From the sequence record OP172796.1: DNA of 64,000 nucleotides. One strand, 5' to 3'. Each line of letters begins with the position of its first letter. Positions within the stretch are counted from its first letter, which is position 1. This stretch comes from Escherichia phage EF202P1. The position numbers and the translations under genes are program-made. This document shows positions 3,946-61,549 of the stretch, piece by piece. Under the pieces are notes generated by a model, which was not told the origin of the DNA, searched no databases, and saw only the letters and a program-made list of their open reading frames with translations.

Positions 3946-11964
<8,019 letters not shown>

Positions 11965-13200: not shown

Positions 13201-15585
13201 ATGGCAGATTACAAATTGAGTGAATTAAACTCAATCGATACAATCCGTTCAGATGACCTTCTTCATGTCAGAGTTAAAAAGAGACCTGAAATGCTGGGTG
13301 ATGAAGACCGTCGAATGACCTATCAAGATTTCTTAGCATCTTTTAAGCTTGAGAGATTTGTTCAGATTATTGGTAGTACCATGACGGGTGATTTAGGTAT
13401 TGTTAAGTTACTTTATGGTGGTAAGACAGTATTTGACCCTACAGGCTCTTCTGAGATTAATATTGGGGATGTTTTAAAGACTTTTAAAATTAACGCAAAC
13501 GGTCTTAAGCTAACTATTGCAGATGCTTCAAGGTCGGCAACTGTTTACCATACCCTGAATAAGCCAAGTCCTAATGAGCTTGGGATGAGAACTAATGAAG
13601 AGAATGATGCAAGATACTCAAGATTAGCTGCAAATAACATCTTTACCTTCCAACAGGTTATTCAAGCAAATGGCGAAGCTATTAGACTAAAAAATTCTTC
13701 TGAGAACTCACCGTTGTATATTAGAGGTCAGGACAGCACTGGTGCTAATAGGTGGTATGTAGGTAATGGTTCAGGGAATGATGATGTTATTATCCACAAC
13801 TACAAGACAGGTTGTGAAGTGAATCTGTCTAGTGTTGCTGCTATCAGTAAAACACTTAGAATCACTGGTCAAGTCCAACCTTCTGACTTCTCTAACTTAG
13901 ATGCTAGATACTTCACACAGACAGTTGCTAATCAGAGATTTGCACAGTTAGCTGCTAATAACAATTTCACTGGCACTAACACGTTTAGCAGAAACCTACT
14001 TATTATTAGTGACAGTGCTGCTTTAAGGTTGAAAAATACTGTAGCAAATGCTGCACTATACGTTAAAGCCGAAGCTAATGATGGTTCTGGTAAGTGGTAT
14101 GTAGGAAATGGTGATAATACACCTGCTGTATTCATCAGCAACTATGTGTATGGTTCTTATCTTAGACTTGACAATGGTCATGTCGCAGTAAACAAGGACT
14201 TCAGAATCACTGGTCAAGTTCAACCTTCAGATTGGGCTAACATCGACTCTAGATACATCCCAGCAGCAACTTTGAGTAACCTACCTAAACTTAATGTTGC
14301 TAACACATTTGTGAATGTGCAAACTATTGTATCAAATAATGAAGGCGTAGTATTAAGAAACTTAACACAGGGACAGCCACAATATATCCGTGGTGTTGAT
14401 ACCCAGAATGTATCTAGGTGGTGGGTAGGTGTGGGTGGCACAAATTCTACTGATGTAGCATTAAACAACAGCTACTCTGGGACTCAAATTACTCTTATGT
14501 CCTCAGCGATTAAGGCTAATAAGAATCTAACCATTACTGGTCAAGTACAACCTTCTGATTGGTCTAACTTAGATGCTAGATATTTTGTTAAAACTCAGTT
14601 ATTAAATCAATCCTTAATGACTGTCTCTGTAGATAACCTTGAAAACCCTTCAGCATTTAATCTTGGATATTCAGGTTTTGTCAGAAACAACAGTGTGACT
14701 AGTGGTCTGAAAGAGTTGGCAATTCATGTTGCTCACTCTAGTAAGTCTGCTGCACATGCAAGGGGTATCTCTTTTGTATACGGTTCAAACGGTTTGGCAA
14801 CATTCACCTATGCCTATGACAAAGACGGCAGATATGCTGGGGAAGCACAGCTTTACACAACTGATTTTAAACCAACCCCTTCAGATATTGGTGCATACAC
14901 TAAAGCTGAAACTGACCAGAAGATTGCACAGGCAGTAAGTGACTCTACAGACCTTAACAAAATCTATCCAGTTGGTATTGTAACGTGGTTTAACAGTAAT
15001 GTTGACCCTAATACAGCACTTCCTGGTCTAACTTGGACGTACCTGAACAATGGTGTTGGTAGAACTATCAGAATCGCAGCAGCAAACGGTTCAGATGTTG
15101 CTACAACTGGTGGTTCAGACTCTGTAACTTTAGCTGTTGGTAACTTACCATCACACACTCACAGTTTCTCTGCTACCACTTCATCTTTTGATTATGGTAC
15201 GAAGGGCACTAATAGTACTGGTGGTCATACTCACTCTGTAAGTGGTACAACAAGTGCTGCTGGTAACCACGCTCACCACTTAGGTTTGTTATTAGTTAAT
15301 GGTGGCGATGCTTTGTACGGTTATACAACAGTTGGTAACAATAAGACAAGGACTCTTGACTGGCTTGACAGAACTGATAACAAGTTCCCTAACACTAACA
15401 CAACTGGTAACCATACACACACATGGTCTGGTACTACAAGCAACACTGGTGCTCACACCCACTCTGTAGGTATCGGTGCTCACACTCATACAGTTAGTGG
15501 TAACACTGGTGGTACAGGTTCTGGTTCAGCATTTAGTGTTACTAACCAGTTCTACAAGTTAATGGCTTGGGTAAGAACTGCTTAA
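13201..15585 (+). CDS. tail fibre protein (long) with three internal ~110-aa repeats and HxH-rich tip
   Basis: Three repeats ending [10 protein letters not shown](W/F)(S/A)N(L/I)D(A/S)RY; C-terminus paralogous to 11967..13154 (SFDYGTKxTN, TNTTGNHx[17 protein letters not shown], ...WVRTA). Confidence 0.8.
13600..14590 (+). repeat. three tandem ~330-345-nt intragenic repeats in long tail-fibre gene
   Basis: ATCACTGGTCAAGT(C/T)CAACCTTC at about 13861, 14206, 14534. Confidence 0.6.
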
Positions 15586-15664: not shown

Positions 15665-15862
15665 ATGCCTACAATCCTAGCAATTCTTCTAAAAAATCTA
15701 GGTAGCTTCTTCTGGAAACTCATTTTATCCCTTCTAAGTGAATACATGATTGAGAAAGTGTTCTTTAGGCTTGCAAGATACCTTGCGAGTAAAACAGACA
15801 CACCTATTGATGATGAGTTCGTAGATAACTTAGAAAAAGCTTTTAAGGGGGAGAATAAATGA
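15665..15862 (+). CDS. small membrane protein (holin-like candidate)
   Basis: 65 aa, hydrophobic N-terminus, charged C-terminus; follows promoter+hairpin after tail fibre. Confidence 0.3.
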   Translation: MPTILAILLKNLGSFFWKLILSLLSEYMIEKVFFRLARYLASKTDTPIDDEFVDNLEKAFKGENK

Positions 15863-16230
15863 AGTGGCTAGAGGAAGCTTTTAAAAATAATATTGGTGCA
15901 ATTGTAGTTGGTATTTTTAGTGTTATTGGGATGTATACCACCATGCAAGTTTCGGATGGTAAACAAGAAGTGTCTATCACAACAAAGTTACAGCAGTTGG
16001 ATAATTATTCCAAAAGTAATTATTCAGCTATCCGTGATTTACAGTCTGATATGAGGTTGCTTCAGCTAGGGATGGAGAACCAGAAAGTCCAGTTAGAGAA
16101 TGTTAAGGGTGAGAACGCAAAACTTACTAAGACTCTTGATAAATTCTCTGATAGTGTGAACAATCTGGCTCAATCAGTATCAGCCCTCCAAGCTATTACT
16201 GAAAAGAACACAAAGAATACTGAAAAGTAA
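15859..16230 (+). CDS. membrane-anchored coiled-coil protein
   Basis: N-terminal TM segment (IGAIVVGIFSVIGMYTT) plus coiled-coil rest; coupled to upstream ORF. Confidence 0.3.
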   Translation: MKWLEEAFKNNIGAIVVGIFSVIGMYTTMQVSDGKQEVSITTKLQQLDNYSKSNYSAIRDLQSDMRLLQLGMENQKVQLENVKGENAKLTKTLDKFSDSVNNLAQSVSALQAITEKNTKNTEK

Positions 16231-16266: not shown

Positions 16267-17166
16267 TTATTTACCTACTGACAAAGGTGCTTCAATCTTT
16301 CCTGCATGTTGGTAATTGTTAATACCACCAATAAAGTCACTTGCAGTGAGATGTTTTAAGTCACTTAAAGTGTTAAGTGGGATACCAATCTCAAAAGTTG
16401 GTGCATGGAACTCTTCATTGTTCATCAGTTCATAAACCTGCTTCATATGGTTCTGATAAATCTGGGTATCTCCAAAAACACCTATCAAGTACCGTGGAGT
16501 GTATCCAGCCATCTTACAAAGAACTTCCAGAATAAAGCCATAAGATGCAATGTTAAAGGGAAGTCCTAAAAAGGTGTCTACAGAACGCTGATACCATTGT
16601 AAGTCAACTTCACCCTCGTTAGTGATATAAATCTGAAACAGAACATGACAAGGTGCTAAAGCCATTGAGTTAGCTGCAATATCTGCTGCATTCCAAGCAT
16701 TAACAAGCATGTAACGGTCTGTGATATCACCCTTCATCTTCGTTACTAAGGTATCTAACTGGTCTACAACACAACCATTATGACCTTCAAAGTTCCTCCA
16801 CTGAACCCCATAAATCCTTCCACCTGCATCTTCTAACCAATCTTGTTCAGAAGAATAATTAGAGCTTAACCAGCGTTTGAAATCATCTGACCAGATTGTC
16901 CAACGTTCTCCGTCATTTTCACCCCAAGTACGGTAACGGAGTTCACCCAGTTTATTCTCACCGTTCAGGAACCATAAAGCTTCCCCAATAACTTGCCGTG
17001 TAAACACCTGTTTAGATGTTAAAAGTGGGAAACCAGTTCTCATATCAAAACGAAATTGTGGTGGAGCAAATGCAGAGATAACAGCTCCAGTTCGTGTAGT
17101 ACGCAGTTCACCGACTGATAAAACATGGTTCAGGATATTTTTGTAACTTGTATCTGCTTGTGACAT
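16267..17166 (-). CDS. thyA: thymidylate synthase (ThyA type)
   Basis: Active-site region ALAPCHVLFQ and overall ThyA-like sequence. Confidence 0.9.
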   Translation of the reverse strand: MSQADTSYKNILNHVLSVGELRTTRTGAVISAFAPPQFRFDMRTGFPLLTSKQVFTRQVIGEALWFLNGENKLGELRYRTWGENDGERWTIWSDDFKRWLSSNYSSEQDWLEDAGGRIYGVQWRNFEGHNGCVVDQLDTLVTKMKGDITDRYMLVNAWNAADIAANSMALAPCHVLFQIYITNEGEVDLQWYQRSVDTFLGLPFNIASYGFILEVLCKMAGYTPRYLIGVFGDTQIYQNHMKQVYELMNNEEFHAPTFEIGIPLNTLSDLKHLTASDFIGGINNYQHAGKIEAPLSVGK

Positions 17167-18499: not shown

Positions 18500-18859
18500 T
18501 TATGGGAACAGACACTTAATGTCATCATTTTTGAAAACGAAACTTGTGTAGTTGTGACCATCAACATCCAGCCAAACAGCCTGAACATCTACACCATCAA
18601 GATTCTGGTAAAGCTCTTTGATGAAGTGGTCTTTTACAATCTGACTGCTAGTGGTTTCCAGCTTAATGTTTGAGATTGCTGAACCTACAGCCATATAACC
18701 CATGACACGTTTCTTCTCAGTATGCTTAATCTTACCATCTTTGTAAGCCATAATGAGATTGGAAAGAATCTTCACACCGTAATACTTTTCAAGGTGTGTA
18801 GGTACACCATAAAAGCCTAATGCGAAGTTTTCAGAGTGGATAATGTTTTCACGTTTCAT
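18500..18859 (-). CDS. hypothetical protein
   Basis: ORF in minus-strand operon; no motif. Confidence 0.4.
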   Translation of the reverse strand: MKRENIIHSENFALGFYGVPTHLEKYYGVKILSNLIMAYKDGKIKHTEKKRVMGYMAVGSAISNIKLETTSSQIVKDHFIKELYQNLDGVDVQAVWLDVDGHNYTSFVFKNDDIKCLFP

Positions 18860-18860
18860 A

Positions 18861-19160
18861 TTAATCTGCCAACCTTAAATTAAAATTAACACCAAATTTT
18901 TCACATACTTCCAACATAAACTCAAGAGAGACATTACCAGTGAGATTGATTATGTTGGATACACGAGCCTGAGAGATACCACAAATTTTAGCAACTTGCT
19001 CTTGAGAAAGACCTCTGGATTTAATCTCTCTCTTAAAACGATGTGCAACGAAGTCTCGCATTTCGTCTACATCCATTGGACAAATATAACTCTCCATTTC
19101 AGCCTCTCTGTCAGCCTCCCAATCATCTTGTGGAGCATAAGGGTCAAAAACCTCATTCAT
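18861..19160 (-). CDS. XRE-family helix-turn-helix transcriptional regulator
   Basis: HTH motif LSQEQVAKICGISQARVSNI; start moved to internal ATG (MNEVF). Confidence 0.5.
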   Translation of the reverse strand: MNEVFDPYAPQDDWEADREAEMESYICPMDVDEMRDFVAHRFKREIKSRGLSQEQVAKICGISQARVSNIINLTGNVSLEFMLEVCEKFGVNFNLRLAD

Positions 19161-19365
19161 CTTTCTTCTTCCGTTTGCGTGAAGTGTCAATCAATGAATC
19201 TATGTTTGTAGCCCTAACCTTTTCACGTTCATCGTTAAGATAATCGTCGAGAGCCTTTTCAATCTGTGAATCATCTTGACAGATAACTGTAAAGACTGTA
19301 AAGCCGTCTGTATCATCAATTATCTTACCATAACCGCTTCTGGGATGTAACTTTTTAAGAGCCAT
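19153..19365 (-). CDS. hypothetical protein
   Basis: 70-aa ORF, basic C-terminus. Confidence 0.3.
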   Translation of the reverse strand: MALKKLHPRSGYGKIIDDTDGFTVFTVICQDDSQIEKALDDYLNDEREKVRATNIDSLIDTSRKRKKKDE

Positions 19366-19366
19366 A

Positions 19367-19750
19367 TCAAATACCTGTGCAGCTTCTGTTTTCTAAGAAA
19401 TACTCAACACCATACATAGCTTTTTGCATCAAATCTTCTTTAAACTGAATACGATGATTAAGCATAGCCTGTACATCAATATCATCATGGTGCTTCTCTT
19501 TAATATTTGCAGATTGCAGGAAATACTCTGCAAGAACACGATACTGATAGTCAGTTACCTTGTCAGTCATCTCTGTTAAAGACTCTTCAGAGATTGGTTT
19601 AAGTAACTCACCATTAGCCAAAGCAACACCTTTTACAATCTGGCAAGTGTCTTCTGGAACACCTGATAAGTCCACATTTGGAAGTTCTGTTGCATTGACT
19701 GGTAAATTCATTGCCATAACCATTGCAGCAGCTAATAAAATCTTTTTCAT
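19367..19750 (-). CDS. secreted/periplasmic protein with signal peptide
   Basis: N-terminal MKKILLAAAMVMAMNLPVNA signal-peptide-like segment; first gene of minus-strand operon. Confidence 0.45.
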   Translation of the reverse strand: MKKILLAAAMVMAMNLPVNATELPNVDLSGVPEDTCQIVKGVALANGELLKPISEESLTEMTDKVTDYQYRVLAEYFLQSANIKEKHHDDIDVQAMLNHRIQFKEDLMQKAMYGVEYFLENRSCTGI

Positions 19751-19970
19751 AATGACCTCAAAGTTATATTAAATTTTGTATTACATTGAGTATAAAAATA
19801 AGCTATAACACCTGACTTGTCAACAGATTTTATAGCTTATTTGGCAGATTTTTTATAAGGCTACTGCCATCCTTCCATACCTTACTTTACCGTACCTGAC
19901 AGTACAACACTTCAACTTACCCAACCACATAATACCCCACCTTATTAAAAGACCCTCTTAAAGACCTTTT

Positions 19971-20013
19971 AAAAAGGTAAGTCTCATTTTAATGTAGCTG
20001 AGACTAACTACCC
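19971..20013 (-). terminator. minus-strand hairpin with T-run (repeat unit terminator)
   Basis: On minus strand GGTAGTTAGTCTC-loop-GAGACTTACC then TTTTT. Confidence 0.45.
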
Positions 20014-20239
20014 ATACTTTACCTCGCCTAACCGCACCCGAATCAACCGGACTAGACCAAGCCCCACTGCACATCACCGAACCAAACATTACTTAAAAAC
20101 CCTTTTAAAAGACTCTTAAGTGATGTAATCGAATTTTTATGTAGTTCCGATTAACTACCCTTACCAGACATTACCGTACCTGACCCTACATAACCACTCC
20201 TTACCAAGCTCAACCTCATTAAAAGACCCTGTTTAAAGA

Positions 20240-20268
20240 CCTTTTAAAAAGGAGCCTCCGAAGAGGCT
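20240..20268 (-). terminator. minus-strand intrinsic terminator after cassette gene 20280..20720
   Basis: On minus strand AGCCTC-UUCG-GAGGCT then CCTTTTT. Confidence 0.6.
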
Positions 20269-20279
20269 ACCTAGTCAAC

Positions 20280-20720
20280 TTAGAAAGGCTTTCTACGTTG
20301 CTTGTTAATATTAGCTTTCATAGCAGCTAAGTGGTTTTGCTGTTCAATCAGTCGTGAACGTTCTTGATGACTAAGTGCCATAGTGTTCACATTCTCAATC
20401 GCTTGAGTGGCTTGCTTTAAAGCACGACCAATCTTACCAGACATTTTGCGTTTTGCAATAGTTGCTTGATGCTTAGGTTCAACCACACGATAACCAACAC
20501 CCATTGAAGCAACCAGATAAATCTTCTCTTCTTTAAGAAGCTTCTCAATAAACTTCTCAAGTCGGTTTAGACGTGTAAGTGCATAAGCCTTCATTTCATC
20601 TTCGTACTTAACAATGTCACCTTGATAAGTTGGCTTCACAATACCTAAGAAGGTATCCATCTCAGAATGTGATACAGTGTCACCGTAACTAAACTTTGCT
20701 GCTAATGCTTTTGTATTCAT
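20280..20720 (-). CDS. hypothetical protein (isolated cassette gene 2)
   Basis: 146 aa, basic C-terminus; followed on minus strand by UUCG-loop terminator. Confidence 0.45.
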   Translation of the reverse strand: MNTKALAAKFSYGDTVSHSEMDTFLGIVKPTYQGDIVKYEDEMKAYALTRLNRLEKFIEKLLKEEKIYLVASMGVGYRVVEPKHQATIAKRKMSGKIGRALKQATQAIENVNTMALSHQERSRLIEQQNHLAAMKANINKQRRKPF

Positions 20721-20722
20721 AA

Positions 20723-21355
<633 letters not shown>

Positions 21356-21359
21356 GAAC

Positions 21360-21697
21360 CCTCAACAGAAGACTCTTTAGAAACTTGGTAGATTTTTAAT
21401 GTGGCTACTACCATCCACCCATACCATGCCACACCACACCGGACCTTACCTAACCCGACCTTACCATACCTGACCTAACCCTACCATACATTATTAAAAG
21501 ACCCTGTTTAAAGACCTTTTAAAAAGGTAAGTCTCATTTTTATGTAGCTGAGACTAACTACCCACACCAAACCATAGCATACATCGCATTACCGGACAGA
21601 ACCATACTTTACCAAACATCACTTAAAAACCCTCTTAGAAGACTCTTAAGTGATGCTGGTGAGTACCCGTTGGTTTATGCTGCTCAGTATACTCACC
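21360..21697. repeat. second copy of the same intergenic unit family (two to three units)
   Basis: Same boxes and hairpins as 19866..20268, ending in GGTGAGTA/TACTCACC stem. Confidence 0.6.
21521..21563 (-). terminator. minus-strand hairpin with T-run downstream of ligase
   Basis: Same AGTCTC/GAGACT hairpin unit as at 19971..20013. Confidence 0.45.
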
Positions 21698-21719
21698 AAA
21701 TTTTCTATGTCAACAACTT

Positions 21720-22820
21720 TTATTCATAATCTCGTATAACCAGCCCAACAGGGAACTGTAAAGACCCCTTACGAGTCATCTTCTGGAACTGTACCGTTAA
21801 AGGTTTCCCGATAAACTCTTCAGGATGCTCAGCAAGATACTGTTTCTTCTCATGAGTAGTCTTCCATGAGACATCTACAAAGACATTAGGAAGAGTCTCT
21901 ACAACGAACTTGCCATGACCACGTTTATCTGTCTTTACACCAGTCACTTTAAACTCTTCAGTGTGCATCTTCTTGTGCTTAATCAAGAAGTATGAACGGT
22001 GACAACACTCATAGAAGGAGTCTTCAGAGATTGAACGGTACATTGCACCTTCAAACTTAGCTTCAACCCACTTATCATGAGCTTCATCAAACTCTTCCCA
22101 AGAATTTACACGACGAGACTTAACAGGAACAACTTTACAGCTGTCTCTGAAGTCATTCAATGGTGAAGTCTCAATAATATCTCTACGCTCAGGCCACGTC
22201 ATAGTACTGTCACAGATATCGTACCAGTAGAACTGGAGTAGATGTCGGTCTGGATTGTCAGCATTCTTAATCATAGACACAATATCTTCTAAGTCCCAAC
22301 CATGAGCATAAATCTCACCATCAAAGTCTTCGACTTGTGGATGCAATTTAAGCAACAAAAGCAAATCTGGGATTAGTTCTTCTGGGACGTTGTAAATAGT
22401 ATTCTCACGAGAATAAGCCGTGAAGCTAACTAAATCAGCATCTCTTGAAATTCTACAACGAACACCATCAAGTTTTGGTTGAGCATCAGCAGGGAATATC
22501 AAATACTTTGCATGACTAACCTTTGCAGCATCATGAGCAAGCTGCACACCTACCTTCTCAGTATTCTGTGCAGACTCTTTTGTGTAAGCATAACCTTTGC
22601 GGTCAACCTGCTTTTTATACTTTGCAGCAACTTCAAAGAGAGCTTGCTGTTCAGCGTTACGCTCATTCTTTTTACCGATGTTTTTAGGTTCTGCTGTATA
22701 CTCTTCAAACATCATCTTGCCATTTTCTTTACCGTAGGTTGTAATAACTTTGTCACCTACAGCAACACATGACCAGACGTTAAAAGAGCCGTCTTTATTT
22801 TGTTTGTACAGAATTGTCAT
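21720..22820 (-). CDS. ATP-dependent DNA ligase
   Basis: Adenylation motif I KLDGVRC; size about 366 aa from ATG with AGAGG RBS. Confidence 0.8.
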   Translation of the reverse strand: MTILYKQNKDGSFNVWSCVAVGDKVITTYGKENGKMMFEEYTAEPKNIGKKNERNAEQQALFEVAAKYKKQVDRKGYAYTKESAQNTEKVGVQLAHDAAKVSHAKYLIFPADAQPKLDGVRCRISRDADLVSFTAYSRENTIYNVPEELIPDLLLLLKLHPQVEDFDGEIYAHGWDLEDIVSMIKNADNPDRHLLQFYWYDICDSTMTWPERRDIIETSPLNDFRDSCKVVPVKSRRVNSWEEFDEAHDKWVEAKFEGAMYRSISEDSFYECCHRSYFLIKHKKMHTEEFKVTGVKTDKRGHGKFVVETLPNVFVDVSWKTTHEKKQYLAEHPEEFIGKPLTVQFQKMTRKGSLQFPVGLVIRDYE

Positions 22821-24504: not shown

Positions 24505-27204
24505 TTAGTGTACTTCAAGCCAGCTTTTGCCAACCTTACCAGTGCCTGTAACAAGCGTTTCTTTCTTAAGACCTAAGTTTTTAGAAGCTTGTCCATAATA
24601 CCAGTCAGTAACTGCTTTCACATCTGCCGTCATACTCTCTGGACATTCCCAACTCGTCTCGTCGTGATATGCGCAGAGCAAACGAGCACCAATAGCTGGT
24701 TGACGACCATTCAACTTCATCAAACCTTCGTCAATCATACGACGACAAGCAAGGTTAATCGCCTCATTTTGAATCTGAGCCTCTGAACCCATCAAAAGAT
24801 AGTTCAACAGCTTGTGTGGAGATTTACACCACAACCAAGCTCCAGCAACCTTTACAAAACCCCCTTTAGAGATTGCAGCGGTCTTACCAAACACCTCTTC
24901 AAGTGCCTTCTTAGTCGCTTTGTAGTCAGCTTCCAAGTCATCTAGCAGCTTCTTAATTTTAGGCAAACGAATAAAGTAAGTCTGTTTAGTCAGTGCACCT
25001 TCCTGAGTAGTTGCAGCTTTAATCGTCTTAGCAAACTTCTCGTCACCTGCACCGAACAGTAGTGCATAGATACCATTCTTAGCTTTCTTACGACCCTTGC
25101 TAATCTCATGAAGAAGGTTCTCATCCTGAGTAGCTCGACAAGTCAAGATATCCTGCTCATCATTCAAGCTAAAGTAAATACTGTTCAGTGTGTGTGCATC
25201 AGTCCCTGAATAGACAACGTAAAGGTCGTTCTCAGAGTCATAGCGAAGGTACTTATCAATCTCTGGGTTGAGGTACTCATCAAAGTGTTTGCAGTAATAG
25301 CGTCCATCTTCTTGACGAATAAACTCAATCTCTTCTTTACCTTGCGTTACCGCTTTGGTGAAGTCTTTGTCACCCATAAAGTTACAAAGAAGAACTAGCT
25401 GGGCTGAGTTCATGTCTACAGATACAACGTTAGTACCTTCTTCACAAATCCACACTGCCCTCATTGGTTCCCCATAGACAGCAGCACCAGACGGTACGTT
25501 TACAATACCATATTGTGTCATACGTCCAGTTGAAGTACCAAACACCATTGCACCAGCACTAAGGCGACCATCAGGACGAATCTGGTTCAACCAACCTTTT
25601 TCATCATCCTTTGAGTTCTCAATAGTTCTGCGTCGGTGCATCAAAGTATAGTATTTCGCAATCTTCTGTCCAAGCTCACCTTCAATCGTATCATAAGATG
25701 ATTCAGTAAGTTTTGGTGAAGTACGGATTAAACAAGGTTCAAGCAAATCTGTGTACTTCTTCACAGACCAGTTATGTTCAATGTACTGGACACCTTCATG
25801 TTCAACATAACTCAAACCGCACCGTTCAACCATCTCCTGCCATTTAGGATGCTTTGTAATCATCTTTTTGTTGTCTTTGAAGCGACAAACCTTAACAGGA
25901 CGACCATCAGAGTCTTTCTTATAGTTCCAGTCATCTGGAATCCAACCAACTGATTTCAAGTAGTCTTTAACAACTGCTACCTGAGTCATACGAGAAACTT
26001 CGAACTCAATTGGTGTATATGGTGCATCAATCAAACCTGTGTAGCGACTTGACTCAAGTTCAAAGTGGTTAACAATATGACTGTTATAGTACTTCACAGT
26101 TTTAACTGTTTTTACTGGCTTCCAGTCTTTGCATTTCTTACCAATCTTTGCGTTCAACTCATTGCAAATTGCACGAGCATCCTTCATTGCTACAAAACCT
26201 TCTTTGTACTCTTCACCAGTTACAGAGTTGGTTGGTGTATAGCAATTCCGCTTTTCAATGTTAAAAATCTTTGTAGTTGGCTTACCAAATGGCTTGATTT
26301 CGTATGTCTGCATCTCACCGTTACGTACCTGCTGACGATACTTCGTCTTAGGGTACTTGGTAATTCTCTTCAGTCCATCTGCATGACCGAATGCTTCAAC
26401 ATACTCATTCCAAGCTTTTGCAAATTCTTCTCCAGTGACTTTACCTTTAGTCTTAATAGTTGGAGGAAGATGTGGTTCAACTTCTGAAGCAAGCTCGTTA
26501 GTCAACTTGTCAAGTTCCTTTACATGAAACTCCATAAGCTCTTTATCAGCTTTCCAACCATTGATAGCTTGTTGACTCATCCAGAAAGATGTTTCTTTAG
26601 CTCGCATGTAGGTTTCATAGGTGTCTATGCCACACTTCTTTAGCTTCAGATATTCATTATCCAATGCACGTTTAGTTTTGGCGTTAATACGGATATCTTC
26701 CACAACACGAGTGAAGATTTCTGCATTCCACACACCCCAATGTTCAATCTCTGGTTTACGGACACCAACACGAGCACCCCATGCTGCCAAGCCATGAGCA
26801 CCTTTATAGCCTTTTGGAGTTGGTCTATCCATCCACTGAACACGAGACTGGATAAGAGAATCCTGAAAGAAATTACTCCACGGCTTACACTTTGGATTAT
26901 CAAAGTTCCACAAATCAGGTGCAATGTGATTGAAAACCCACCAGTCATACCCTAAACCATTATGGATGCAAAGTCGTTTTGCCTTTAACGCAAACTCAAT
27001 ACCTTCACGCAAACCACCCTTAATGTACTTGGTATACTTGTGACCGAGGATAGGCTCATCTGTAAAGACCCATACAGGTGGCTCTTCATCGTCAGATTTA
27101 TAGTCTGCGAAAGCCATTACGTGCACTTTAGTGAACTCAAGGAGTAAACCATCAGTTTCTGTATCACCAACTAAATGTAAGTTTTTAAAATCTACGTTTT
27201 CCAT
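24505..27204 (-). CDS. DNA polymerase, family A, with 3'-5' exonuclease domain
   Basis: Exo motif GDTETDGL; Pol A motifs (DMNSAQLVLL, KKAKNGIYALLFGAG, YHDE); start at ATG with GGAGGGAG RBS. Confidence 0.9.
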   Translation of the reverse strand: MENVDFKNLHLVGDTETDGLLLEFTKVHVMAFADYKSDDEEPPVWVFTDEPILGHKYTKYIKGGLREGIEFALKAKRLCIHNGLGYDWWVFNHIAPDLWNFDNPKCKPWSNFFQDSLIQSRVQWMDRPTPKGYKGAHGLAAWGARVGVRKPEIEHWGVWNAEIFTRVVEDIRINAKTKRALDNEYLKLKKCGIDTYETYMRAKETSFWMSQQAINGWKADKELMEFHVKELDKLTNELASEVEPHLPPTIKTKGKVTGEEFAKAWNEYVEAFGHADGLKRITKYPKTKYRQQVRNGEMQTYEIKPFGKPTTKIFNIEKRNCYTPTNSVTGEEYKEGFVAMKDARAICNELNAKIGKKCKDWKPVKTVKTVKYYNSHIVNHFELESSRYTGLIDAPYTPIEFEVSRMTQVAVVKDYLKSVGWIPDDWNYKKDSDGRPVKVCRFKDNKKMITKHPKWQEMVERCGLSYVEHEGVQYIEHNWSVKKYTDLLEPCLIRTSPKLTESSYDTIEGELGQKIAKYYTLMHRRRTIENSKDDEKGWLNQIRPDGRLSAGAMVFGTSTGRMTQYGIVNVPSGAAVYGEPMRAVWICEEGTNVVSVDMNSAQLVLLCNFMGDKDFTKAVTQGKEEIEFIRQEDGRYYCKHFDEYLNPEIDKYLRYDSENDLYVVYSGTDAHTLNSIYFSLNDEQDILTCRATQDENLLHEISKGRKKAKNGIYALLFGAGDEKFAKTIKAATTQEGALTKQTYFIRLPKIKKLLDDLEADYKATKKALEEVFGKTAAISKGGFVKVAGAWLWCKSPHKLLNYLLMGSEAQIQNEAINLACRRMIDEGLMKLNGRQPAIGARLLCAYHDETSWECPESMTADVKAVTDWYYGQASKNLGLKKETLVTGTGKVGKSWLEVH

Positions 27205-27264
27205 TTTTACTCCCTCTAAAATCATTAACCTCATACATTACTGCAAAAAATTATAAAAAGCAAG

Positions 27265-27293
27265 TTGACAATGTACTTGACAAGGTGTTAATC
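27265..27293 (+). promoter_or_regulatory. candidate promoter in divergent AT-rich region (two TTGACA boxes)
   Basis: TTGACA at about 27265 and 27277; weak -10. Confidence 0.35.
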
Positions 27294-57635: not shown

Positions 57636-57842
57636 ATGCTTTACAGTCGTGAATTGATGGTTACAACTAACGTTAACACAAAGGTAAAACGTTTTTATAT
57701 GCAAGTGTGCGGCGCATGGCGTAGAATATCAGAAGCTGACTATTGCAACTATGTAGAAACGGCTATTAATTCTAATTGCTACCTTACAAGAAACACTAAG
57801 AAATTTACAAGGCAGACAGCGATTTACTACTACGACAAATAA
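57636..57842 (+). CDS. small hypothetical protein (array gene 1)
   Basis: ATG after RBS CTGGAGAATCAAA; sigma70-like promoter upstream. Confidence 0.4.
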   Translation: MLYSRELMVTTNVNTKVKRFYMQVCGAWRRISEADYCNYVETAINSNCYLTRNTKKFTRQTAIYYYDK

Positions 57843-57928
57843 AGTACTTTACAGGGGGCTTAAAAGCTGATATCTTAAGCCCCAGATAAAGAGCTTTACC
57901 ACTCAATCCTAAATTGGAGAACTTAAAA
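57843..57928 (+). promoter_or_regulatory. class-A cassette (TTTACA - hairpin - TATCTT/TAAAGT - conserved leader - RBS)
   Basis: AAGTACTTTACAGGGGGCTT...AAGCCCCAGATAAAGAGCTTTACC...GGAGA...ATG. Confidence 0.5.
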
Positions 57929-58309
57929 ATGGCATACCGTGCACCTAAATTCATCAACAAAGACAACTTTCGCAACGCACTGGAGAAGTCACTTGATGAA
58001 AATTTTAAAGGTAACATTATCGTTGTTCACGCATTCAATTTTAAGTATGATGTAAACGGGAATAGAATCAACCATTACACAGCAACCATGTTAGATGGTA
58101 CGCTATCAAGTGAAAAAGCTGTACTGAATGCACTTGCAGGACGTGGTAAAAACCTGATAAGATGCGATAAGAGACGTTATCAGGGTGGCGCATATGGTTA
58201 TGATGATGCTGTTTATCATCTTGAAAATATGGGCTATTCAGTGGAAAAAGCTGGAGTGTCTCAAATAATCGGCAGTGACGGCTATGTGACAATTTTCAAA
58301 ATTAACTAA
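57929..58309 (+). CDS. small hypothetical protein (array gene 2)
   Basis: ATG 8 nt after GGAGA RBS of conserved cassette. Confidence 0.45.
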   Translation: MAYRAPKFINKDNFRNALEKSLDENFKGNIIVVHAFNFKYDVNGNRINHYTATMLDGTLSSEKAVLNALAGRGKNLIRCDKRRYQGGAYGYDDAVYHLENMGYSVEKAGVSQIIGSDGYVTIFKIN

Positions 58310-58311
58310 TA

Positions 58312-58397
58312 AAGTACTTTACAGGGGGCTTATAGTTCGATAAAGTAAGCCCCAGATAAAGAGCTTTACCACTAAATCCTAAATTGGAGATTCAAAA
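58312..58397 (+). promoter_or_regulatory. class-A cassette
   Basis: Near-identical copy; hairpin GGGGCTTATAGTTCGATAAAGTAAGCCCC. Confidence 0.5.
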
Positions 58398-58655
58398 ATG
58401 GCTATTATTAAAAACGTTGTAATTCCTGCAAAAACTCGTGATGACGCTCGCATCATGGCGAAAAAGTTAGGCGGAAAAGTGGTTGACAACGGAAAACAAA
58501 CTGCTGTAAGGTGGGGCGTGAAAGCTGATAAGCAACTAACCTTAAAACGCAGTTCAAACAACCTTTTTAAAGGTGTAAAATCACTCGGTAAAGTGAACGT
58601 GTTTACCAAAAAAGGCTATAAAATGCACTTATCATTAACTGGCAATTTAATCTGA
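58398..58655 (+). CDS. small hypothetical basic protein (array gene 3)
   Basis: Cassette-preceded ORF. Confidence 0.45.
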   Translation: MAIIKNVVIPAKTRDDARIMAKKLGGKVVDNGKQTAVRWGVKADKQLTLKRSSNNLFKGVKSLGKVNVFTKKGYKMHLSLTGNLI

Positions 58656-58745
58656 TAAAGTACTTTACAGGGGGCTTAAAAGCTGATATCTTAAGCCCCA
58701 GATAAAGAGCTTTACCACTCAATCCTTAAACTAGGAGATTCAAAA
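58656..58745 (+). promoter_or_regulatory. class-A cassette
   Basis: Near-identical copy. Confidence 0.5.
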
Positions 58746-59258
58746 ATGAAAACTGTAGACGCTACCTTTGAAGTTGTAAAAGAAAAATTTTCCATAATTT
58801 ATGAGGCTGTCAATTGCTACGAAGCAAGCCATAATCTTGATAATTGGAAGTTTACAGATGACCATCAAGGCGGTGTGACTATTAAAAACCCCAACTGTCA
58901 GCGTAATGGATTTAAATATGCAATTCCTTTACATTACAGCCTTAAACAGCTTTCAATTGACTATGCAAAACAAGGCCGGGAAAATCCATCGAAAGAGGCT
59001 TACATCAGCTTACAGAAAGAACTAGAAAGAGATTTAGAGGCTTCAGAATATAACATCGCCGCGAAAGTTGTAGATGCAAACGGTAGCACGGTTTTAGAGA
59101 GTTTTTATATTGGTTATGCTTTCGATTGGTGCTACAGTGACGGCGATGATTTAGATGACAGACTAAAAGAGGAAGTGAACAACGCAGACGCAGAATCTGA
59201 AGTATTAGAACGCTTGGAAGCATTAAAAGATTCAGTGATGAATATCTTTAAGAACTAA
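58746..59258 (+). CDS. hypothetical acidic protein (array gene 4)
   Basis: Cassette-preceded ORF. Confidence 0.45.
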   Translation: MKTVDATFEVVKEKFSIIYEAVNCYEASHNLDNWKFTDDHQGGVTIKNPNCQRNGFKYAIPLHYSLKQLSIDYAKQGRENPSKEAYISLQKELERDLEASEYNIAAKVVDANGSTVLESFYIGYAFDWCYSDGDDLDDRLKEEVNNADAESEVLERLEALKDSVMNIFKN

Positions 59259-59349
59259 ATAGATTTCTTTACACGGGGCTAACAAGCGGATATGATAGCC
59301 CCAGATAAAGAGATTTATCAAATTAACCCTTAAACTAGGAGATTCTAAA
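59259..59349 (+). promoter_or_regulatory. class-A cassette (divergent copy, TTTACA-17-TATGAT)
   Basis: Hairpin sequence differs (CGGGGCTA...TAGCCCC) but hexamers and spacing kept. Confidence 0.5.
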
Positions 59350-59646
59350 ATGAAATTATCAAATAAAGTTAGGGAAAACCTTAGCAAATTACTCAATAAA
59401 ATTGATTTTATCGAGACATCAAGGAATAGTCATGATGTTATGGAATGGTTACACGGCAAAATAAAAGGCCGTCGCGTCGTGATTTGCTTATGGAATAGTT
59501 GCAGGGAATATAAAAAGCCTGTATTGCAAATTAATGTTTATGATGATACTTTTAAAAGTCCTGTAAAGTCTAAAAGCGATTTATTAGAATCCTATGAGAT
59601 AACTGTAAATGGCAAAGTATCATGTAAAGAGGAAGCACCATGTTAA
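59350..59646 (+). CDS. small hypothetical protein (array gene 5)
   Basis: Cassette-preceded ORF. Confidence 0.45.
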   Translation: MKLSNKVRENLSKLLNKIDFIETSRNSHDVMEWLHGKIKGRRVVICLWNSCREYKKPVLQINVYDDTFKSPVKSKSDLLESYEITVNGKVSCKEEAPC

Positions 59647-59972
59647 TGATGGGTATCACTGCAATCATTGCCATTATAGCACTGTACAAGGCTTATAGCG
59701 CATATAATTTGGCAAGTAAGGCAATCACGCAACAGGTTAATAATAGCCTTGTAATGAGCTTTCTGGAGCGTTTAAGTGATGAACAAATAAAACGGTTAGA
59801 AATGAGCTTCAGATTTCAATCAAAAACTTATCAAATCAGCGACATTTTCAAAGATAATTTTCAGCTTGTCGATGATTATAACTCTCTGATAAATGCTTTA
59901 AATATCAGTGACTTAAAAGACTATTACACTGTAATTGTCCAAGAACTGAACAAACGAAAAAATTTCTCTTGA
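59640..59972 (+). CDS. small membrane protein (array gene 6)
   Basis: N-terminal TM helix MLMMGITAIIAIIALY; overlaps upstream ORF. Confidence 0.4.
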   Translation: MLMMGITAIIAIIALYKAYSAYNLASKAITQQVNNSLVMSFLERLSDEQIKRLEMSFRFQSKTYQISDIFKDNFQLVDDYNSLINALNISDLKDYYTVIVQELNKRKNFS

Positions 59973-60062
59973 TTTTAGTTTTAAAAACAAGTAAATTACT
60001 AATCAACGGGGAGGGAATGACCTTCCCCACTAAGTAAAGTCCTTAAACTAGGAGATTCAAAA
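59969..60062 (+). promoter_or_regulatory. class-B cassette (TTGATT-17-TAAATT promoter, 5' hairpin GGGGAGG/CCTTCCCC, RBS)
   Basis: Promoter hexamers, then AATCAACGGGGAGGGAATGACCTTCCCCACTAAGTAAAGTCCTTAAACTAGGAGATTC..ATG. Confidence 0.55.
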
Positions 60063-60335
60063 ATGTACACTACTAACAACGGTCGCACCTTAAACGTAAC
60101 CCTACGTCACTATGTGAACGGTGTAATGCACTTCGAGGATTTACAAGCTGAACAGCACATTTTGGATTGGCAACTTGCAGGATTCCAAAAAACTGCTACC
60201 GGATACGGGAAAAAGATTCCAACTAGCTGGAAAGTATACTACGAAGGCCGTTTGCGTAGAATTTATCAAGATGTATGCGGCAATAGCGCATCAAGTTACA
60301 TCATAGTAAAAGGCAAAAAGCTGCATTTAGTATAA
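60063..60335 (+). CDS. small hypothetical protein (array gene 7)
   Basis: Cassette-preceded ORF. Confidence 0.45.
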   Translation: MYTTNNGRTLNVTLRHYVNGVMHFEDLQAEQHILDWQLAGFQKTATGYGKKIPTSWKVYYEGRLRRIYQDVCGNSASSYIIVKGKKLHLV

Positions 60336-60420
60336 AGTACTTTACAAGGGGCTTATAGTTCGATAAAGTAAGCCCCAGATAAAGAGCTTTACCACTAAAT
60401 CCTAAATTGGAGATTCAAAA
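60336..60420 (+). promoter_or_regulatory. class-A cassette
   Basis: Near-identical copy. Confidence 0.5.
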
Positions 60421-60825
60421 ATGGCTATTAATAATCGTGAGTTATCTATCTTAAAAGCACGTTTGACCGTCAACCGGATTAATGTTATCACATCATCAGC
60501 ACCAGATGAAACACTGCAAAACATTATTGGGAAGATTCAAAGTATTATCTTAGACGTTGAAAGCGTAAAAAACTCATTGGCTGACGTTGCAGCCGGTATC
60601 ACGCTAGACGGTGCACAACATGAGATGGCCGACATGTTAGGCAAATCAAAGGTAATGAATAAAGAGCTTGATTTAAAGATGTTCCGATTTGCTGTTAAAG
60701 TGTGGCTATCCGTCGAGTATGACGCTAATTTTGCAATCGCTGATTTCTTTGCCACTTGGTTACAACGTAACTTAACAAATCATGATTTCCGTGATGTCTG
60801 TGATGCAATCTACGCAGAACTTTAA
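60421..60825 (+). CDS. small hypothetical protein (array gene 8)
   Basis: Cassette-preceded ORF. Confidence 0.45.
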   Translation: MAINNRELSILKARLTVNRINVITSSAPDETLQNIIGKIQSIILDVESVKNSLADVAAGITLDGAQHEMADMLGKSKVMNKELDLKMFRFAVKVWLSVEYDANFAIADFFATWLQRNLTNHDFRDVCDAIYAEL

Positions 60826-60832
60826 AAAGATG

Positions 60833-60925
60833 TTGACACTGATTTTTAGATAGATTAAATTACTCATCAACGGGGAGGCAATAGCCTCCCTACTAAGTAA
60901 AGTCCTTAAACTAGGAGATTCAAAA
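60833..60925 (+). promoter_or_regulatory. class-B cassette (TTGACA-17-TAAATT)
   Basis: As above, hairpin variant GGGGAGGCAATAGCCTCCC. Confidence 0.55.
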
Positions 60926-61123
60926 ATGGCTATTATTAACGGCTTAAACATTGAAACAACACACATCAAAGATATCAAAGTTGGTGATGTAGTCCTTTCC
61001 CACGGCGTAGAAAAAACTGTCACTGCAAAGGATATCAAAGAGGATTCTTTCATGGGTAGAACTCTCTTCGGTGATTCTTATTGCTTAGGTTATCTTGCAG
61101 TTTTAAAAGTTGTCAAAAATTAA
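60926..61123 (+). CDS. small hypothetical protein (array gene 9)
   Basis: Cassette-preceded ORF. Confidence 0.4.
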   Translation: MAIINGLNIETTHIKDIKVGDVVLSHGVEKTVTAKDIKEDSFMGRTLFGDSYCLGYLAVLKVVKN

Positions 61124-61215
61124 GTAATAAAGTGCTTTACAAGGGGCTTAAAAAGTTGGTATCTTAAGCCCCAGATAAAGAGCTTTACACAGTCCTTAAA
61201 CTAGGAGATTAAAAA
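61124..61215 (+). promoter_or_regulatory. class-A cassette
   Basis: Near-identical copy. Confidence 0.5.
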
Positions 61216-61464
61216 ATGATGAACTATTTCAATGTCCCTGATACCTGCCGACTATTGACACAAGAAGAAAACTTGGGTAAACCTTTTCTTTACCACATAC
61301 CAGACAACACACCAAAAACTTATAGTTACAATGTCAACCGTTTTACCGCATACGCTGCAAAGAACGGTTATAAGTTGGTCACTCAAAAAGTAATGCTGGT
61401 TACAACCGCTGATGAGATTCCTACAGTTGCAGTTAAACTAATTTTCTCAAAAAAAGTTAAATAA
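61216..61464 (+). CDS. small hypothetical protein (array gene 10)
   Basis: Cassette-preceded ORF. Confidence 0.45.
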   Translation: MMNYFNVPDTCRLLTQEENLGKPFLYHIPDNTPKTYSYNVNRFTAYAAKNGYKLVTQKVMLVTTADEIPTVAVKLIFSKKVK

Positions 61465-61549
61465 AGTACTTTACAAGGGGCTTATAGTTCGATAAAGTAA
61501 GCCCCAGATAAAGAGCTTTACCACTAAATCCTAAACTGGAGATTCAAAA
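61465..61549 (+). promoter_or_regulatory. class-A cassette
   Basis: Near-identical copy. Confidence 0.5.

What the first reader, a model, noticed from the sequence alone, without database searches (positions are those of the whole stretch)
19751..20279. 530-bp non-coding region of tandem structured units with extreme strand asymmetry (G-depleted on + strand)
Between two minus-strand operons lie three tandem ~145-bp units, each a ~75-nt C/A-rich, nearly G-free block (CCATCCTTCCATACCTTACTTTACCGTACC...), an A/T box (ATTAAAAGACCCT.TTAAAGACCTTTTAAAAAGG) and a hairpin that on the minus strand is followed by a T-run (terminator-like; the last has a UUCG tetraloop). No ORF of 60 aa or more is present. 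Read on the + strand the blocks look like rut-type (C-rich, G-poor) Rho loading sites; on the - strand they are GU-rich leaders ending in terminators, so they could be tandem terminators, short non-coding RNAs or protein/RNA-binding platforms.
Basis: seen in the sequence. Interest (0 to 1): 0.7.

Follow-up and report, generated by a model that had tools for sequence, protein, structure and literature searches.

The report
Phage VIPR guide-RNA array (vrRNAs)
The 530-bp "non-coding" stretch is an array of three guide RNAs for a recently described phage RNA-guided DNA-silencing system (VIPR), apparently aimed at a satellite element in E. coli genomes; it is real and functional-looking, but it was already described in 2026.

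Summary
In detail: three tandem units, G-poor on the + strand, no ORF of 60 aa or more, hairpins and A/T boxes. On the - strand (the sense of all flanking genes) each block is a degenerate pentanucleotide array (GGYNN)n, with fixed GGY and free NN.

The window is a Felix-O1-like (Ounavirinae) phage. The gene upstream (20723-21310, -) is 98.5% identical to SUSP1 Vipr (PDB 36pp, E 1e-128). The next gene is 99.3% identical to the SUSP1 gene in the vap1 position.

This is therefore a type II VIPR locus (bioRxiv 10.64898/2026.04.26.720920 and .720927). It holds two vrRNAs upstream of vipr (21387-21655) and three downstream, which are the finding. Each vrRNA is a GGYNN tract plus a conserved pseudoknot tail.

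With the published 1-nt-skip rule, and not with skips of 0, 2 or 3, all five guides match an ~11.6-kb E. coli satellite:
- B1: 19/20
- B2: 20/24
- A1: 20/22
- A2: 24/26
- A3: 23/26

There is no self-target. The Rho/rut reading is not supported; "short ncRNAs / protein-binding platforms" was right.

Novelty: already known. This particular guide set is not in the phage collection. A six-copy locus-specific box before each vrRNA and before vipr remains unexplained.

The parts
21686..21713 (-). Sigma-70-like promoter TTGACA-16-TATACT at the head of the VIPR locus, just after the DNA ligase gene
   Evidence: Promoter scan, 11 of 12 matches. The same sequence stands upstream of vrRNA1 in SUSP1.
21617..21655 (-). 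Box preceding vrRNA B1: GTCTT..GGGTTTTT core between 10-nt inverted arms CATCACTTAA / TTAAGTGATG
21521..21613 (-). vrRNA B1. GGYNN tract 21563-21613, guide NN = aa at tc cc aa ga at at tt gt. Pseudoknot tail plus U-run 21521-21562
   Evidence: Target 19/20 in satellite L134:8064-8092.
21488..21528 (-). Box preceding vrRNA B2
21387..21485 (-). vrRNA B2. Tract 21413-21485 with 11 consecutive perfect GGTNN, guide ag ta ca at aa cg ta aa cc gt gt at. Tail 21387-21412; GTGG of the last unit can pair with CCAC in the tail loop
   Evidence: The first 10 units match 20/20 in satellite L132:11689.
21351..21375 (-). Sixth copy of the box, 40 nt upstream of the vipr start, with no repeat tract after it
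20723..21310 (-). vipr gene (195 aa from the ATG at 21310; the ORF list starts it at the GTG at 21325)
   Evidence: PDB 36pp 'SUSP1 Vipr protein', E 1e-128. 98.5% identical to the SUSP1 protein. The RNA- and DNA-contact residues named in the cryo-EM paper are present. phrog_4652; no Pfam family.
20280..20720 (-). vap1 (vipr accessory protein), 146 aa
   Evidence: 99.3% identical to the SUSP1 gene in the same position. phrog_5926; no Pfam family and no PDB relative. The name is assigned by position and identity; the protein was not tested.
20246..20271 (-). Intrinsic terminator after vap1 (UUCG tetraloop, U-run)
   Evidence: Terminator scan.
20125..20253 (-). Unit 1 of the finding. Box 20213-20253. 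vrRNA A1 tract 20160-20215, guide tg tt aa gt ta ag ca ac aa ct aa. Pseudoknot tail 20125-20159 (variant stem 2, no U-run)
   Evidence: Target 20/22 at L148:7001-7032, upstream of the satellite's small recombinase gene.
19971..20126 (-). Unit 2 of the finding. Box 20086-20126. vrRNA A2 tract 20013-20083, guide tc ga gc gg tt ct cc tg cg gc ta ga aa (at). Pseudoknot tail plus U-run 19971-20012
   Evidence: Target 24/26 in the satellite's large serine recombinase gene in L128, L129 and L131.
19843..19978 (-). Unit 3 of the finding. Box 19939-19978. vrRNA A3 tract 19869-19941, guide gg at gt tg aa ga gt ac ca ac aa aa at. Tail 19843-19868 (GGCAG/CTGCC stem; AAGG/CCTT second stem)
   Evidence: Target 23/26 in a 128-aa satellite CDS, L135:7375 and L128:7533.
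19789..19842 (-). 19-bp hairpin followed by TTTTTAT that closes the array. It carries the -35 (TTGACA) of the promoter for the downstream operon in its loop
   Evidence: Inverted repeat I1 and promoter scan TTGACA-17-TATTTT.

Best explanation
The region is the downstream guide-RNA array (three vrRNAs) of a type II VIPR (Viral Interference Programmable Repeat) system carried by a Felix-O1-like phage.

The locus reads, on the - strand: promoter, two vrRNAs, vipr, vap1, terminator, three vrRNAs. Each vrRNA is a tract of about 10-14 GGYNN units followed by a conserved pseudoknot tail.

From the published work on the 98.5%-identical SUSP1 system: one Vipr protomer (a minimal RAMP) binds each repeat and buries the GGY. 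The NN dinucleotides are left exposed to pair with double-stranded DNA, skipping every third target base. The bound DNA is held in an R-loop triplex and transcription of the target is silenced.

Shown here: the anatomy, the identity of the proteins, and sequence complementarity of all five guides, under the 1-nt-skip rule only, to an ~11.6-kb satellite element integrated in E. coli chromosomes. The targets are its integrase gene, the region upstream of its small recombinase gene, a baseplate gene and two other CDSs.

Inferred: during infection of a satellite-bearing host, the phage uses these RNAs to shut down the satellite that would parasitise it.
For: Protein identity
- The upstream gene matches PDB 36pp 'SUSP1 Vipr protein' at E 1e-128 over residues 6-200. 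It is 98.5% identical to the SUSP1 protein, and the next gene is 99.3% identical to its SUSP1 counterpart.
- GGY-, target- and non-target-strand contact residues H17, K33, R39, E71, M72, K82, G87, K88, R138, C173, D177, W178 and R179 are all present. The residue roles come from the paper read.

Repeat register
- GGT spacings in the blocks are multiples of 5.
- GGYNNx4+GGY occurs 9 times against 0.00 in shuffles.

Conservation pattern
- Across relatives (heid, bumzen, wV8, AYO145A, SUSP1 and three IMG/VR contigs) boxes and tails are conserved while the NN differ.
- 233 units use all 16 dinucleotides, with 3.76 bits of entropy. Y is T in 204 units and C in 29.

Tail pseudoknot
- 11 pairs are paired in 100% of cells, three with compensatory changes; slid controls give 21-36%.

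Independent re-derivation
- A scan of IMG/VR for (GGTNN)7GGT, followed by BLAST clustering of neighbouring ORFs, found one ~175-210-aa protein family next to complex arrays in 42 loci. That family includes the Felix-like homologue of this gene. In the 18 loci mapped, almost every array lay on the sense strand of its neighbouring ORFs.

Targets (10-11 satellite variants, ~198 kb)
- With skip 1: B1 19/20, B2 20/24 (first 10 units 20/20), A2 24/26, A3 23/26. 0 of 100 unit-order shuffles reached any of these.
- Skips 0, 2 and 3 gave no match above 80% of NN; the best was 17/22 (77%).
- A1 reaches 20/22 at L148:7001-7032, a site held by 57 E. coli genomes.
- In the three targets where I worked out the reading frame from the coordinates (B1, A3 and A2), the skipped base falls on the codon wobble position, as the paper reports.
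- There is no self-target at 80% or more in the window.

Layout
- The arrangement (vrRNA upstream, three vrRNAs downstream of vipr-vap1) is the one shown by sRNA-seq for SUSP1.
Against: - Nothing here shows that these RNAs are made. No consensus sigma-70 promoter precedes the three downstream vrRNAs, and they lie after a good terminator. Their transcription must rest on read-through, unrecognised promoters or processing.
- Several units are degenerate (AGC, GGA, TGT, AGT in place of GGY): 4 of 11 in A1. The paper says mutating GGY motifs abolishes silencing, although native SUSP1 guides with the same kind of degeneracy worked and such degeneracy is called frequent.
- No target match is perfect, and B2 loses its last units.
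- The A1 target was found with a query built from the guide plus skip bases borrowed from a marginal hit. Its significance therefore holds only within the satellite family: 20/22 would occur about 7 times by chance in all 28 Gb.
- The reference work is two preprints.
Confidence: 0.93

Rival explanations
1. The C-rich, G-poor + strand blocks are rut sites that load Rho on antisense or read-in transcripts. The - strand hairpins are tandem intrinsic terminators insulating two operons.
For: Composition: 40-48% C and 5-12% G over 51-78 nt on the + strand. One consensus terminator lies at 20253-20268, and two tails end in TTTTT.
Against: - All flanking genes and both promoter-like sites are on the - strand.
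- A rut site needs no fixed ACC every 5 nt with free spacers.
- This reading does not explain the linkage to a Vipr gene in 42 unrelated viral loci or the 1-nt-skip matches to satellite DNA.
- Relatives such as Salmonella phage Si3 lack the whole cassette, with the ligase gene next to the same downstream operon. It is therefore not needed as an insulator.
Confidence: 0.02
2. A TRAP-like or other ring or filament RNA-binding regulator binds the GGU triplets (2-nt spacers) to attenuate transcription or block translation of neighbouring genes. There is no DNA targeting.
For: The triplet-plus-2-nt register resembles TRAP sites (recalled knowledge, used as a lead). In several IMG/VR loci the arrays fill the spacer between two co-directional genes and run into the next ribosome-binding site.
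Against: - The partner protein is Vipr, not a TRAP-type protein. There is no Pfam hit for any neighbour except an HTH protein.
- A pure protein-docking role does not predict hypervariable NN that spell out satellite genes under one specific skip rule.
Confidence: 0.02
3. The array is a decaying or partly inactive copy of a VIPR array: vrRNA-like DNA kept by hitch-hiking, with some units no longer functional.
For: Degenerate GGY positions. Unit number varies between relatives, and many carry only one or two units in this spacer. Target matches are imperfect.
Against: - Boxes and tails are intact and identical to those of SUSP1.
- All five guides still reach at least 83% NN match to the satellite.
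- SUSP1 native guides with similar degeneracy silenced reporters.
Confidence: 0.03

Closest known systems
Type II VIPR system of Escherichia phage SUSP1 (vrRNA1-4, Vipr, Vap1); bioRxiv 10.64898/2026.04.26.720920 and 10.64898/2026.04.26.720927; PDB 36pp
   Same: - Genomic slot: ligase, VIPR locus, then the 127-aa gene operon.
- Vipr is 98.5% and Vap1 99.3% identical.
- The promoter, boxes and pseudoknot tails are the same.
- Three vrRNAs lie downstream of vap1.
- The guides point at the same kind of E. coli satellite (tape measure, baseplate, serine recombinase).

   Different: - The NN guide content and unit numbers differ in every vrRNA.
- There are two vrRNAs upstream of vipr instead of one.
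- The host genome is closest to Felixounavirus records, about 94% over the flanking genes, while the locus as a whole reaches at most 92% in any phage record.
Class 1 CRISPR crRNA bound by Cas7-type RAMP filaments
   Same: One RAMP protomer binds per fixed RNA period. A thumb flips bases out of the guide-target duplex. A variable guide is capped by a conserved structured handle (as stated in the papers).
   Different: - The period is 5 nt with only 2 pairing bases, and 1 target base is skipped.
- There are no CRISPR repeats or spacers, no cas1/cas2 and no PAM.
- The system is phage-encoded.
- The outcome is silencing rather than cleavage in this type.
TRAP (trp RNA-binding attenuation protein) binding sites
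   Same: Arrays of about 11 conserved triplets separated by 2-nt free spacers on an RNA that wraps an oligomeric protein (recalled knowledge; resemblance only).
   Different: The triplet is GGY rather than (G/U)AG. The protein is unrelated. The spacers carry information.
Rho utilisation (rut) sites
   Same: C-rich, G-poor stretches of about 50-80 nt on the + strand.
   Different: The C-rich strand is the antisense strand. The composition is a by-product of the GGY register.

Membership tests
VIPR system (type II, SUSP1 clade) | A vipr gene (minimal RAMP homologue) in the locus | tested here: met
   PDB 36pp SUSP1 Vipr, E 1e-128; 98.5% identity over 195 aa.
VIPR system (type II, SUSP1 clade) | Residues that read G1, G2 and Y3 and hold the target and non-target strands | tested here: met
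   H17, K33, R39, E71, M72, K82, G87, K88, R138, C173, D177, W178 and R179 are present. Position 175 is V here and also in the SUSP1 sequence I extracted, so the paper's 'T175' is not a difference between the two.
VIPR system (type II, SUSP1 clade) | vrRNAs with 9-16 YNNGG repeats: GGY conserved, NN hypervariable | tested here: met
   10-14 units per tract in 5-nt register. NN differ among relatives while the scaffold is kept. All 16 dinucleotides are used, 3.76 bits. Some units are degenerate, as the paper notes for natural vrRNAs.
VIPR system (type II, SUSP1 clade) | Invariant 3' tail folding into a pseudoknot | tested here: met
   Tails are identical or near-identical to those of SUSP1. The proposed H-type pseudoknot is 100% paired, with 3 compensatory pairs, against 21-36% when slid. 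For the second tail type, GGTAG/CTACC changes to GGCAG/CTGCC and GTGG/CCAC to AAGG/CCTT; this is read directly from the sequences.
VIPR system (type II, SUSP1 clade) | An accessory vap gene next to vipr | tested here: met
   The 146-aa gene is 99.3% identical to the SUSP1 gene in the same position. Its DNA-binding role was not tested, and it has no Pfam or PDB relative.
VIPR system (type II, SUSP1 clade) | Guides complementary to foreign DNA under the 1-nt-skip rule, with no self-targets | tested here: met
   Matches of 19/20, 20/24, 20/22, 24/26 and 23/26 to E. coli satellite variants with skip 1. Skips 0, 2 and 3 gave no match above 80% of NN (best 17/22). 0 of 100 unit-order shuffles reached the observed score for four guides. 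The best self-hit is 17/22.
VIPR system (type II, SUSP1 clade) | vrRNAs expressed as ~100-nt RNAs that co-purify with Vipr and repress targets | not testable with these tools
   Shown for SUSP1 by sRNA-seq, pull-down and GFP or plaque assays; no expression data exist for this window.
Rho-dependent terminator (rut site) | A C-rich, G-poor, unstructured stretch on the RNA that is actually transcribed | tested here: not met
   The composition is met only on the + strand. Genes and promoter-like sites are on the - strand, and the only + strand promoter-like site in 19000-22000 lies inside vipr at 21004-21031. There are no expression data.
Intrinsic (Rho-independent) terminators | A G+C-rich hairpin followed by a U-run | tested here: met
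   Met by consensus scan for 20253-20268. The tails at 19971-20012 and 21521-21562 end in TTTTT. The tails at 20125-20159, 19843-19868 and 21387-21412 have no U-run. Terminator function can coexist with the vrRNA role by defining 3' ends.
TRAP-type attenuation | A TRAP (TrpBP) family protein and (G/U)AG triplet repeats | tested here: not met
   No Pfam family on the neighbouring proteins apart from an HTH protein. The triplet is GGY.
Rfam families | A match at gathering score to any curated RNA family | tested here: not met
   No match in the whole window. vrRNAs are apparently not in Rfam 15.

The most novel reading that the evidence does not exclude
The box is GTCTT-N5-9-GGGTYYTT, in most copies flanked by 10-13-nt inverted arms. 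It stands before every vrRNA tract and also before the vipr ORF, and occurs nowhere else in the 64-kb window. It may be a cis-element of VIPR biogenesis or control that the text I read does not mention. Candidates are a Vap1 operator, a non-canonical promoter giving each vrRNA its own start, or a processing signal that sets vrRNA 5' ends.

Conserved but different 5' flanks also precede the tracts in unrelated VIPR-like loci, for example ACTAACTG in L015. That points to a general 5' determinant.
Probability: 0.35. Interest if true: 0.4.

Novelty: already known. Interest (0 to 1): 0.25.

Why it matters
VIPR is a newly reported way of recognising DNA with RNA through a gapped code: two paired bases, one skipped. 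It is proposed to be older than CRISPR.

This window adds a natural locus with five guides whose predicted targets I could map onto an E. coli satellite found, at least in part, in about 10% of complete E. coli genomes (547 of 5426). The targets are its integrase, the region upstream of its small recombinase, a baseplate gene and two further CDSs.

That gives concrete, testable phage-versus-satellite pairs. It also flags one cis-element (the box) and the question of how the downstream array is transcribed past a terminator.

As a discovery it is not new. The same locus in SUSP1 is the type example.

Tried and rejected
- tRNA/tmRNA scan and Rfam at gathering score: nothing in the window.
- Tandem Repeats Finder did not report the arrays, because the units are too divergent.
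- My first working ideas are listed below. All were set aside once the neighbouring protein proved to be Vipr and the guides matched satellite DNA.
  - TRAP-like ring-protein site
  - two-tetrad G-quadruplex
  - R-loop origin downstream of a promoter
  - primase recognition cluster
  - ribosome standby / Shine-Dalgarno-like enhancer
- Older Felix O1 and wV8 genome papers mention direct repeats but not this element. wV8 annotates part of it only as 'DR_4'.
- Box as a sigma-70 promoter: by eye no good -35/-10 pair, and the scan finds none.
- Box as an RNA hairpin: by my reading of the sequences, one arm varies among relatives without compensation, so the hairpin is not supported.
- Exact-pattern scans for perfect A1 and B2 targets in IMG/VR: none.
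- A1 in one-genome-per-species bacteria: no full match. A 9-unit seed gave 12 hits in unrelated taxa, about the number I estimate from the collection's size.
- Vipr and Vap1 by tblastn in ten satellites: no hit.
- The satellite's own vrRNA against the window: best 16/24, not significant. Its 21/24 hit in L127 lies outside the satellite, in what looks to me like a REP-type palindrome, and I treat it as chance.

Full report
**What is in the sequence**

The finding lies between two - strand genes (19367..19750 and 20280..20720). It has no ORF of 60 aa or more; the longest is 43 aa. A 37-41-nt A/T-rich box recurs three times at 147- and 127-nt spacing.

On the + strand the blocks between the boxes hold 5-12% G and 40-42% C. 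The window averages 20.5% G and 18.3% C. The description is therefore correct.

Read on the - strand, which is the sense of all neighbouring genes, the blocks have a strict register. GGT triplets are 5, 10, 20 or 25 nt apart. Each block is thus a degenerate (GGYNN)n array, and the + strand G-poverty is just the complement of this.

A second intergenic spacer, 21326-21720, contains two more units of the same build. One has 11 consecutive perfect GGTNN with varied NN. The pattern GGYNNx4+GGY is found 9 times there and never in shuffles.

Each tract is preceded by the box. GTCTT-N5-9-GGGTYYTT has six copies in 64 kb, all in this locus, against 0.06 expected. Each tract is followed by a hairpin with a conserved A-rich loop.

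**Where it comes from**

The window is a Felix-O1-like phage (Ounavirinae). It is about 94% identical to many Felixounavirus records over 18500-21500. Within the finding itself, identity to relatives drops to 77-87% and the number of units varies.

Older annotations call part of it 'repeat_region' or 'DR_4' without a function. The Felix O1 and wV8 genome papers do not explain it.

**How the partner was found**

Besides plain microsatellites, many unrelated viral contigs (34-60% G+C) carry arrays with 5-15 different spacers, often several in tandem. In the 18 loci I mapped, almost all arrays lie on the sense strand of the flanking ORFs, commonly starting just after a stop codon.

BLAST clustering of ORFs within 1.5 kb of such arrays gave one family of about 175-210 aa present in 42 loci. 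It includes the Felix-like homologue of window gene 20723..21325.

That protein has no Pfam family and belongs to phrog_4652, of unknown function. It matches PDB entry 36pp, 'SUSP1 Vipr protein', at E 1e-128.

**What is known about it**

Two 2026 preprints describe VIPR, Viral Interference Programmable Repeat systems.

- Vipr is a minimal RAMP.
- vrRNAs are ~100-nt RNAs with 9-16 YNNGG repeats and an invariant 3' tail, which is a pseudoknot in the SUSP1 clade.
- One Vipr protomer binds each repeat, sequesters GGY and presents NN.
- The NN pair with double-stranded DNA while every third target base is skipped.
- The complex forms an R-loop triplex and represses transcription.
- In phage SUSP1 one vrRNA lies upstream, and three lie downstream, of vipr-vap1.
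- 18 of 20 assignable guides of that clade hit a satellite phage in E. coli genomes.

**Membership tests done here**

- Vipr is 98.5% identical to its SUSP1 counterpart and the 146-aa neighbour 99.3%. The promoter, boxes and tails are shared, whereas the NN differ throughout.
- The contact residues named in the cryo-EM paper are all present.
- Across nine tails from five phages, the proposed H-type pseudoknot is paired in 100% of cells. Three pairs change on both sides; slid controls give 21-36%.
- In the second tail type both stems also co-vary: GGTAG/CTACC to GGCAG/CTGCC, and GTGG/CCAC to AAGG/CCTT. This is read directly.
- In 233 well-defined units from this phage and relatives, all 16 NN occur (3.76 bits). 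Y is T in 204 units and C in 29.

**Targets**

The locus matched 67 E. coli chromosomes only over one vrRNA-like stretch. That stretch sits in an ~11.6-kb island integrated in yecE or between yciI and tonB. The island carries a large serine recombinase, a tape-measure gene and a baseplate gene, which is the satellite of the paper. Parts of the island occur in 547 of 5426 complete genomes.

I fetched ten variants and scored every position on both strands for each guide, with 0-3 skipped bases. Only skip 1 gave strong hits:

| Guide | Match | Site | Context |
|---|---|---|---|
| B1 | 19/20 | L134:8064-8092 | inside a 236-aa CDS, in frame |
| B2 | first ten units 20/20 (20/24 overall) | L132:11689 | baseplate gene |
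| A2 | 24/26 | L128, L129, L131 | large recombinase gene |
| A3 | 23/26 | L135:7375, L128:7533 | 128-aa CDS, in frame |

None of 100 unit-order shuffles reached these scores. Skips 0, 2 and 3 gave no match above 80% of NN; the best was 17/22.

A1 was marginal at first (17/22). A 32-nt query combining the guide with the skip bases of that hit found 57 E. coli genomes. In STEC2018-553 the site matches 20/22, with the first nine units perfect. It lies 30-61 nt upstream of the satellite's small recombinase gene. This last result is significant only within the satellite family.

The window holds no self-target at 80% or more.

From the coordinates, the skipped base falls on the codon wobble position in the B1, A3 and A2 targets, as the paper reports. 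It does not in the B2 target.

**How it most likely works, and what is not shown**

The promoter at 21686-21713 heads the locus, and a good terminator follows vap1. Two tails carry U-runs that could set 3' ends.

How the three downstream vrRNAs are transcribed is open. No consensus promoter precedes them. The box could be a promoter, an operator or a processing site. By my reading of the sequences, its inverted arms do not co-vary among relatives.

Expression, Vipr binding and silencing are taken from the SUSP1 work and are not shown for this phage.

**Context**

Salmonella phage Si3 has the ligase gene directly next to the 127-aa gene, with no vipr, vap1 or arrays. The ~1.9-kb cassette is therefore an accessory module. 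No phage record exceeds 92% identity over the whole locus, so this guide set is not in that collection.

**Verdict**

The rut reading is wrong, and the 'ncRNA / protein platform' reading is right. The element is a member of an already described system, of which its SUSP1 orthologue is the type example.

Noticed in passing
window 21387-21655: A second vrRNA array lies upstream of vipr, outside the finding's coordinates. It has two vrRNAs where SUSP1 has one. The extra one (B1) has the terminator-type tail.
   Followed up: yes
window 19948-19965, 20095-20113, 20222-20240, 21354-21373, 21497-21515, 21625-21643: The box GTCTT-N5-9-GGGTYYTT has six copies in 64 kb (0.06 expected). One stands before each vrRNA tract and one 40 nt before the vipr start codon. 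Its role is unknown (promoter, operator or processing site). It is not mentioned in the text of the preprints I read.
   Followed up: partly
L126, L127 about 15000-15102; L128 about 4390-4450: The E. coli satellite carries its own vrRNA with the phage-type tail (GGTGGATGGTAGTAGCCACATTAAAAATCTACC), but tblastn finds no vipr or vap1. It would presumably have to borrow the helper phage's Vipr. In L128 the tail stem changes compensatorily (GTCG/CGAC).
   Followed up: partly
IMG/VR loci, e.g. L114 (2609-12920), L063, L017, L010/L113, L015, L038: Very diverse VIPR-like loci. L114 (60% G+C) has more than 20 arrays spread over 10 kb between ORFs. L038 and L016 have one array in each intergenic spacer, running straight into the next gene's ribosome-binding site. 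Each family has its own conserved 5' flank (e.g. ACTAACTG in L015) and end motif (GGCA, GGTAAGGC).
   Followed up: partly
window 57822-61563 (+ strand): Another intergenic repeat family has 5-6 copies: TAAAGTACTTTACA, then hairpin GGGGCTTA...TAAGCCCC, then AGATAAAGAGCTTTAC. It corresponds to the 57-bp direct repeat reported for Felix O1. Nearby, a conserved leader CCTTAAACTAGGAGATTCAAAAATG precedes several genes (five copies between 58717 and 61219). These may be promoter/terminator cassettes of the early region.
   Followed up: no
window 19789-19842: A 19-bp hairpin (89% complementary) followed by TTTTTAT closes the vrRNA array. The -35 hexamer of the next operon's promoter sits in its loop. 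Its 5' arm (ATAAGCTA) could also pair with the loop of the A3 tail.
   Followed up: no
window 21310-21325: The mechanical ORF starts at the GTG at 21325. The SUSP1 protein and the PDB chain begin at the ATG at 21310 (MKLLNIK...), which is the likelier start.
   Followed up: yes
L149 (Salmonella phage Si3) 3001-3282: Some Felix-O1-like phages lack the whole VIPR cassette, with ligase and the 127-aa gene only 282 bp apart. The cassette is thus an accessory insertion at a fixed slot.
   Followed up: yes
window 16763-16844, 18840-18939, 27162-27266 (G-poor); 15805-15940, 674-756 (C-poor): Other stretches with strong strand asymmetry turned up in the composition scan. None contains a GGYNN register by the pattern search; they were not examined further.
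   Followed up: no
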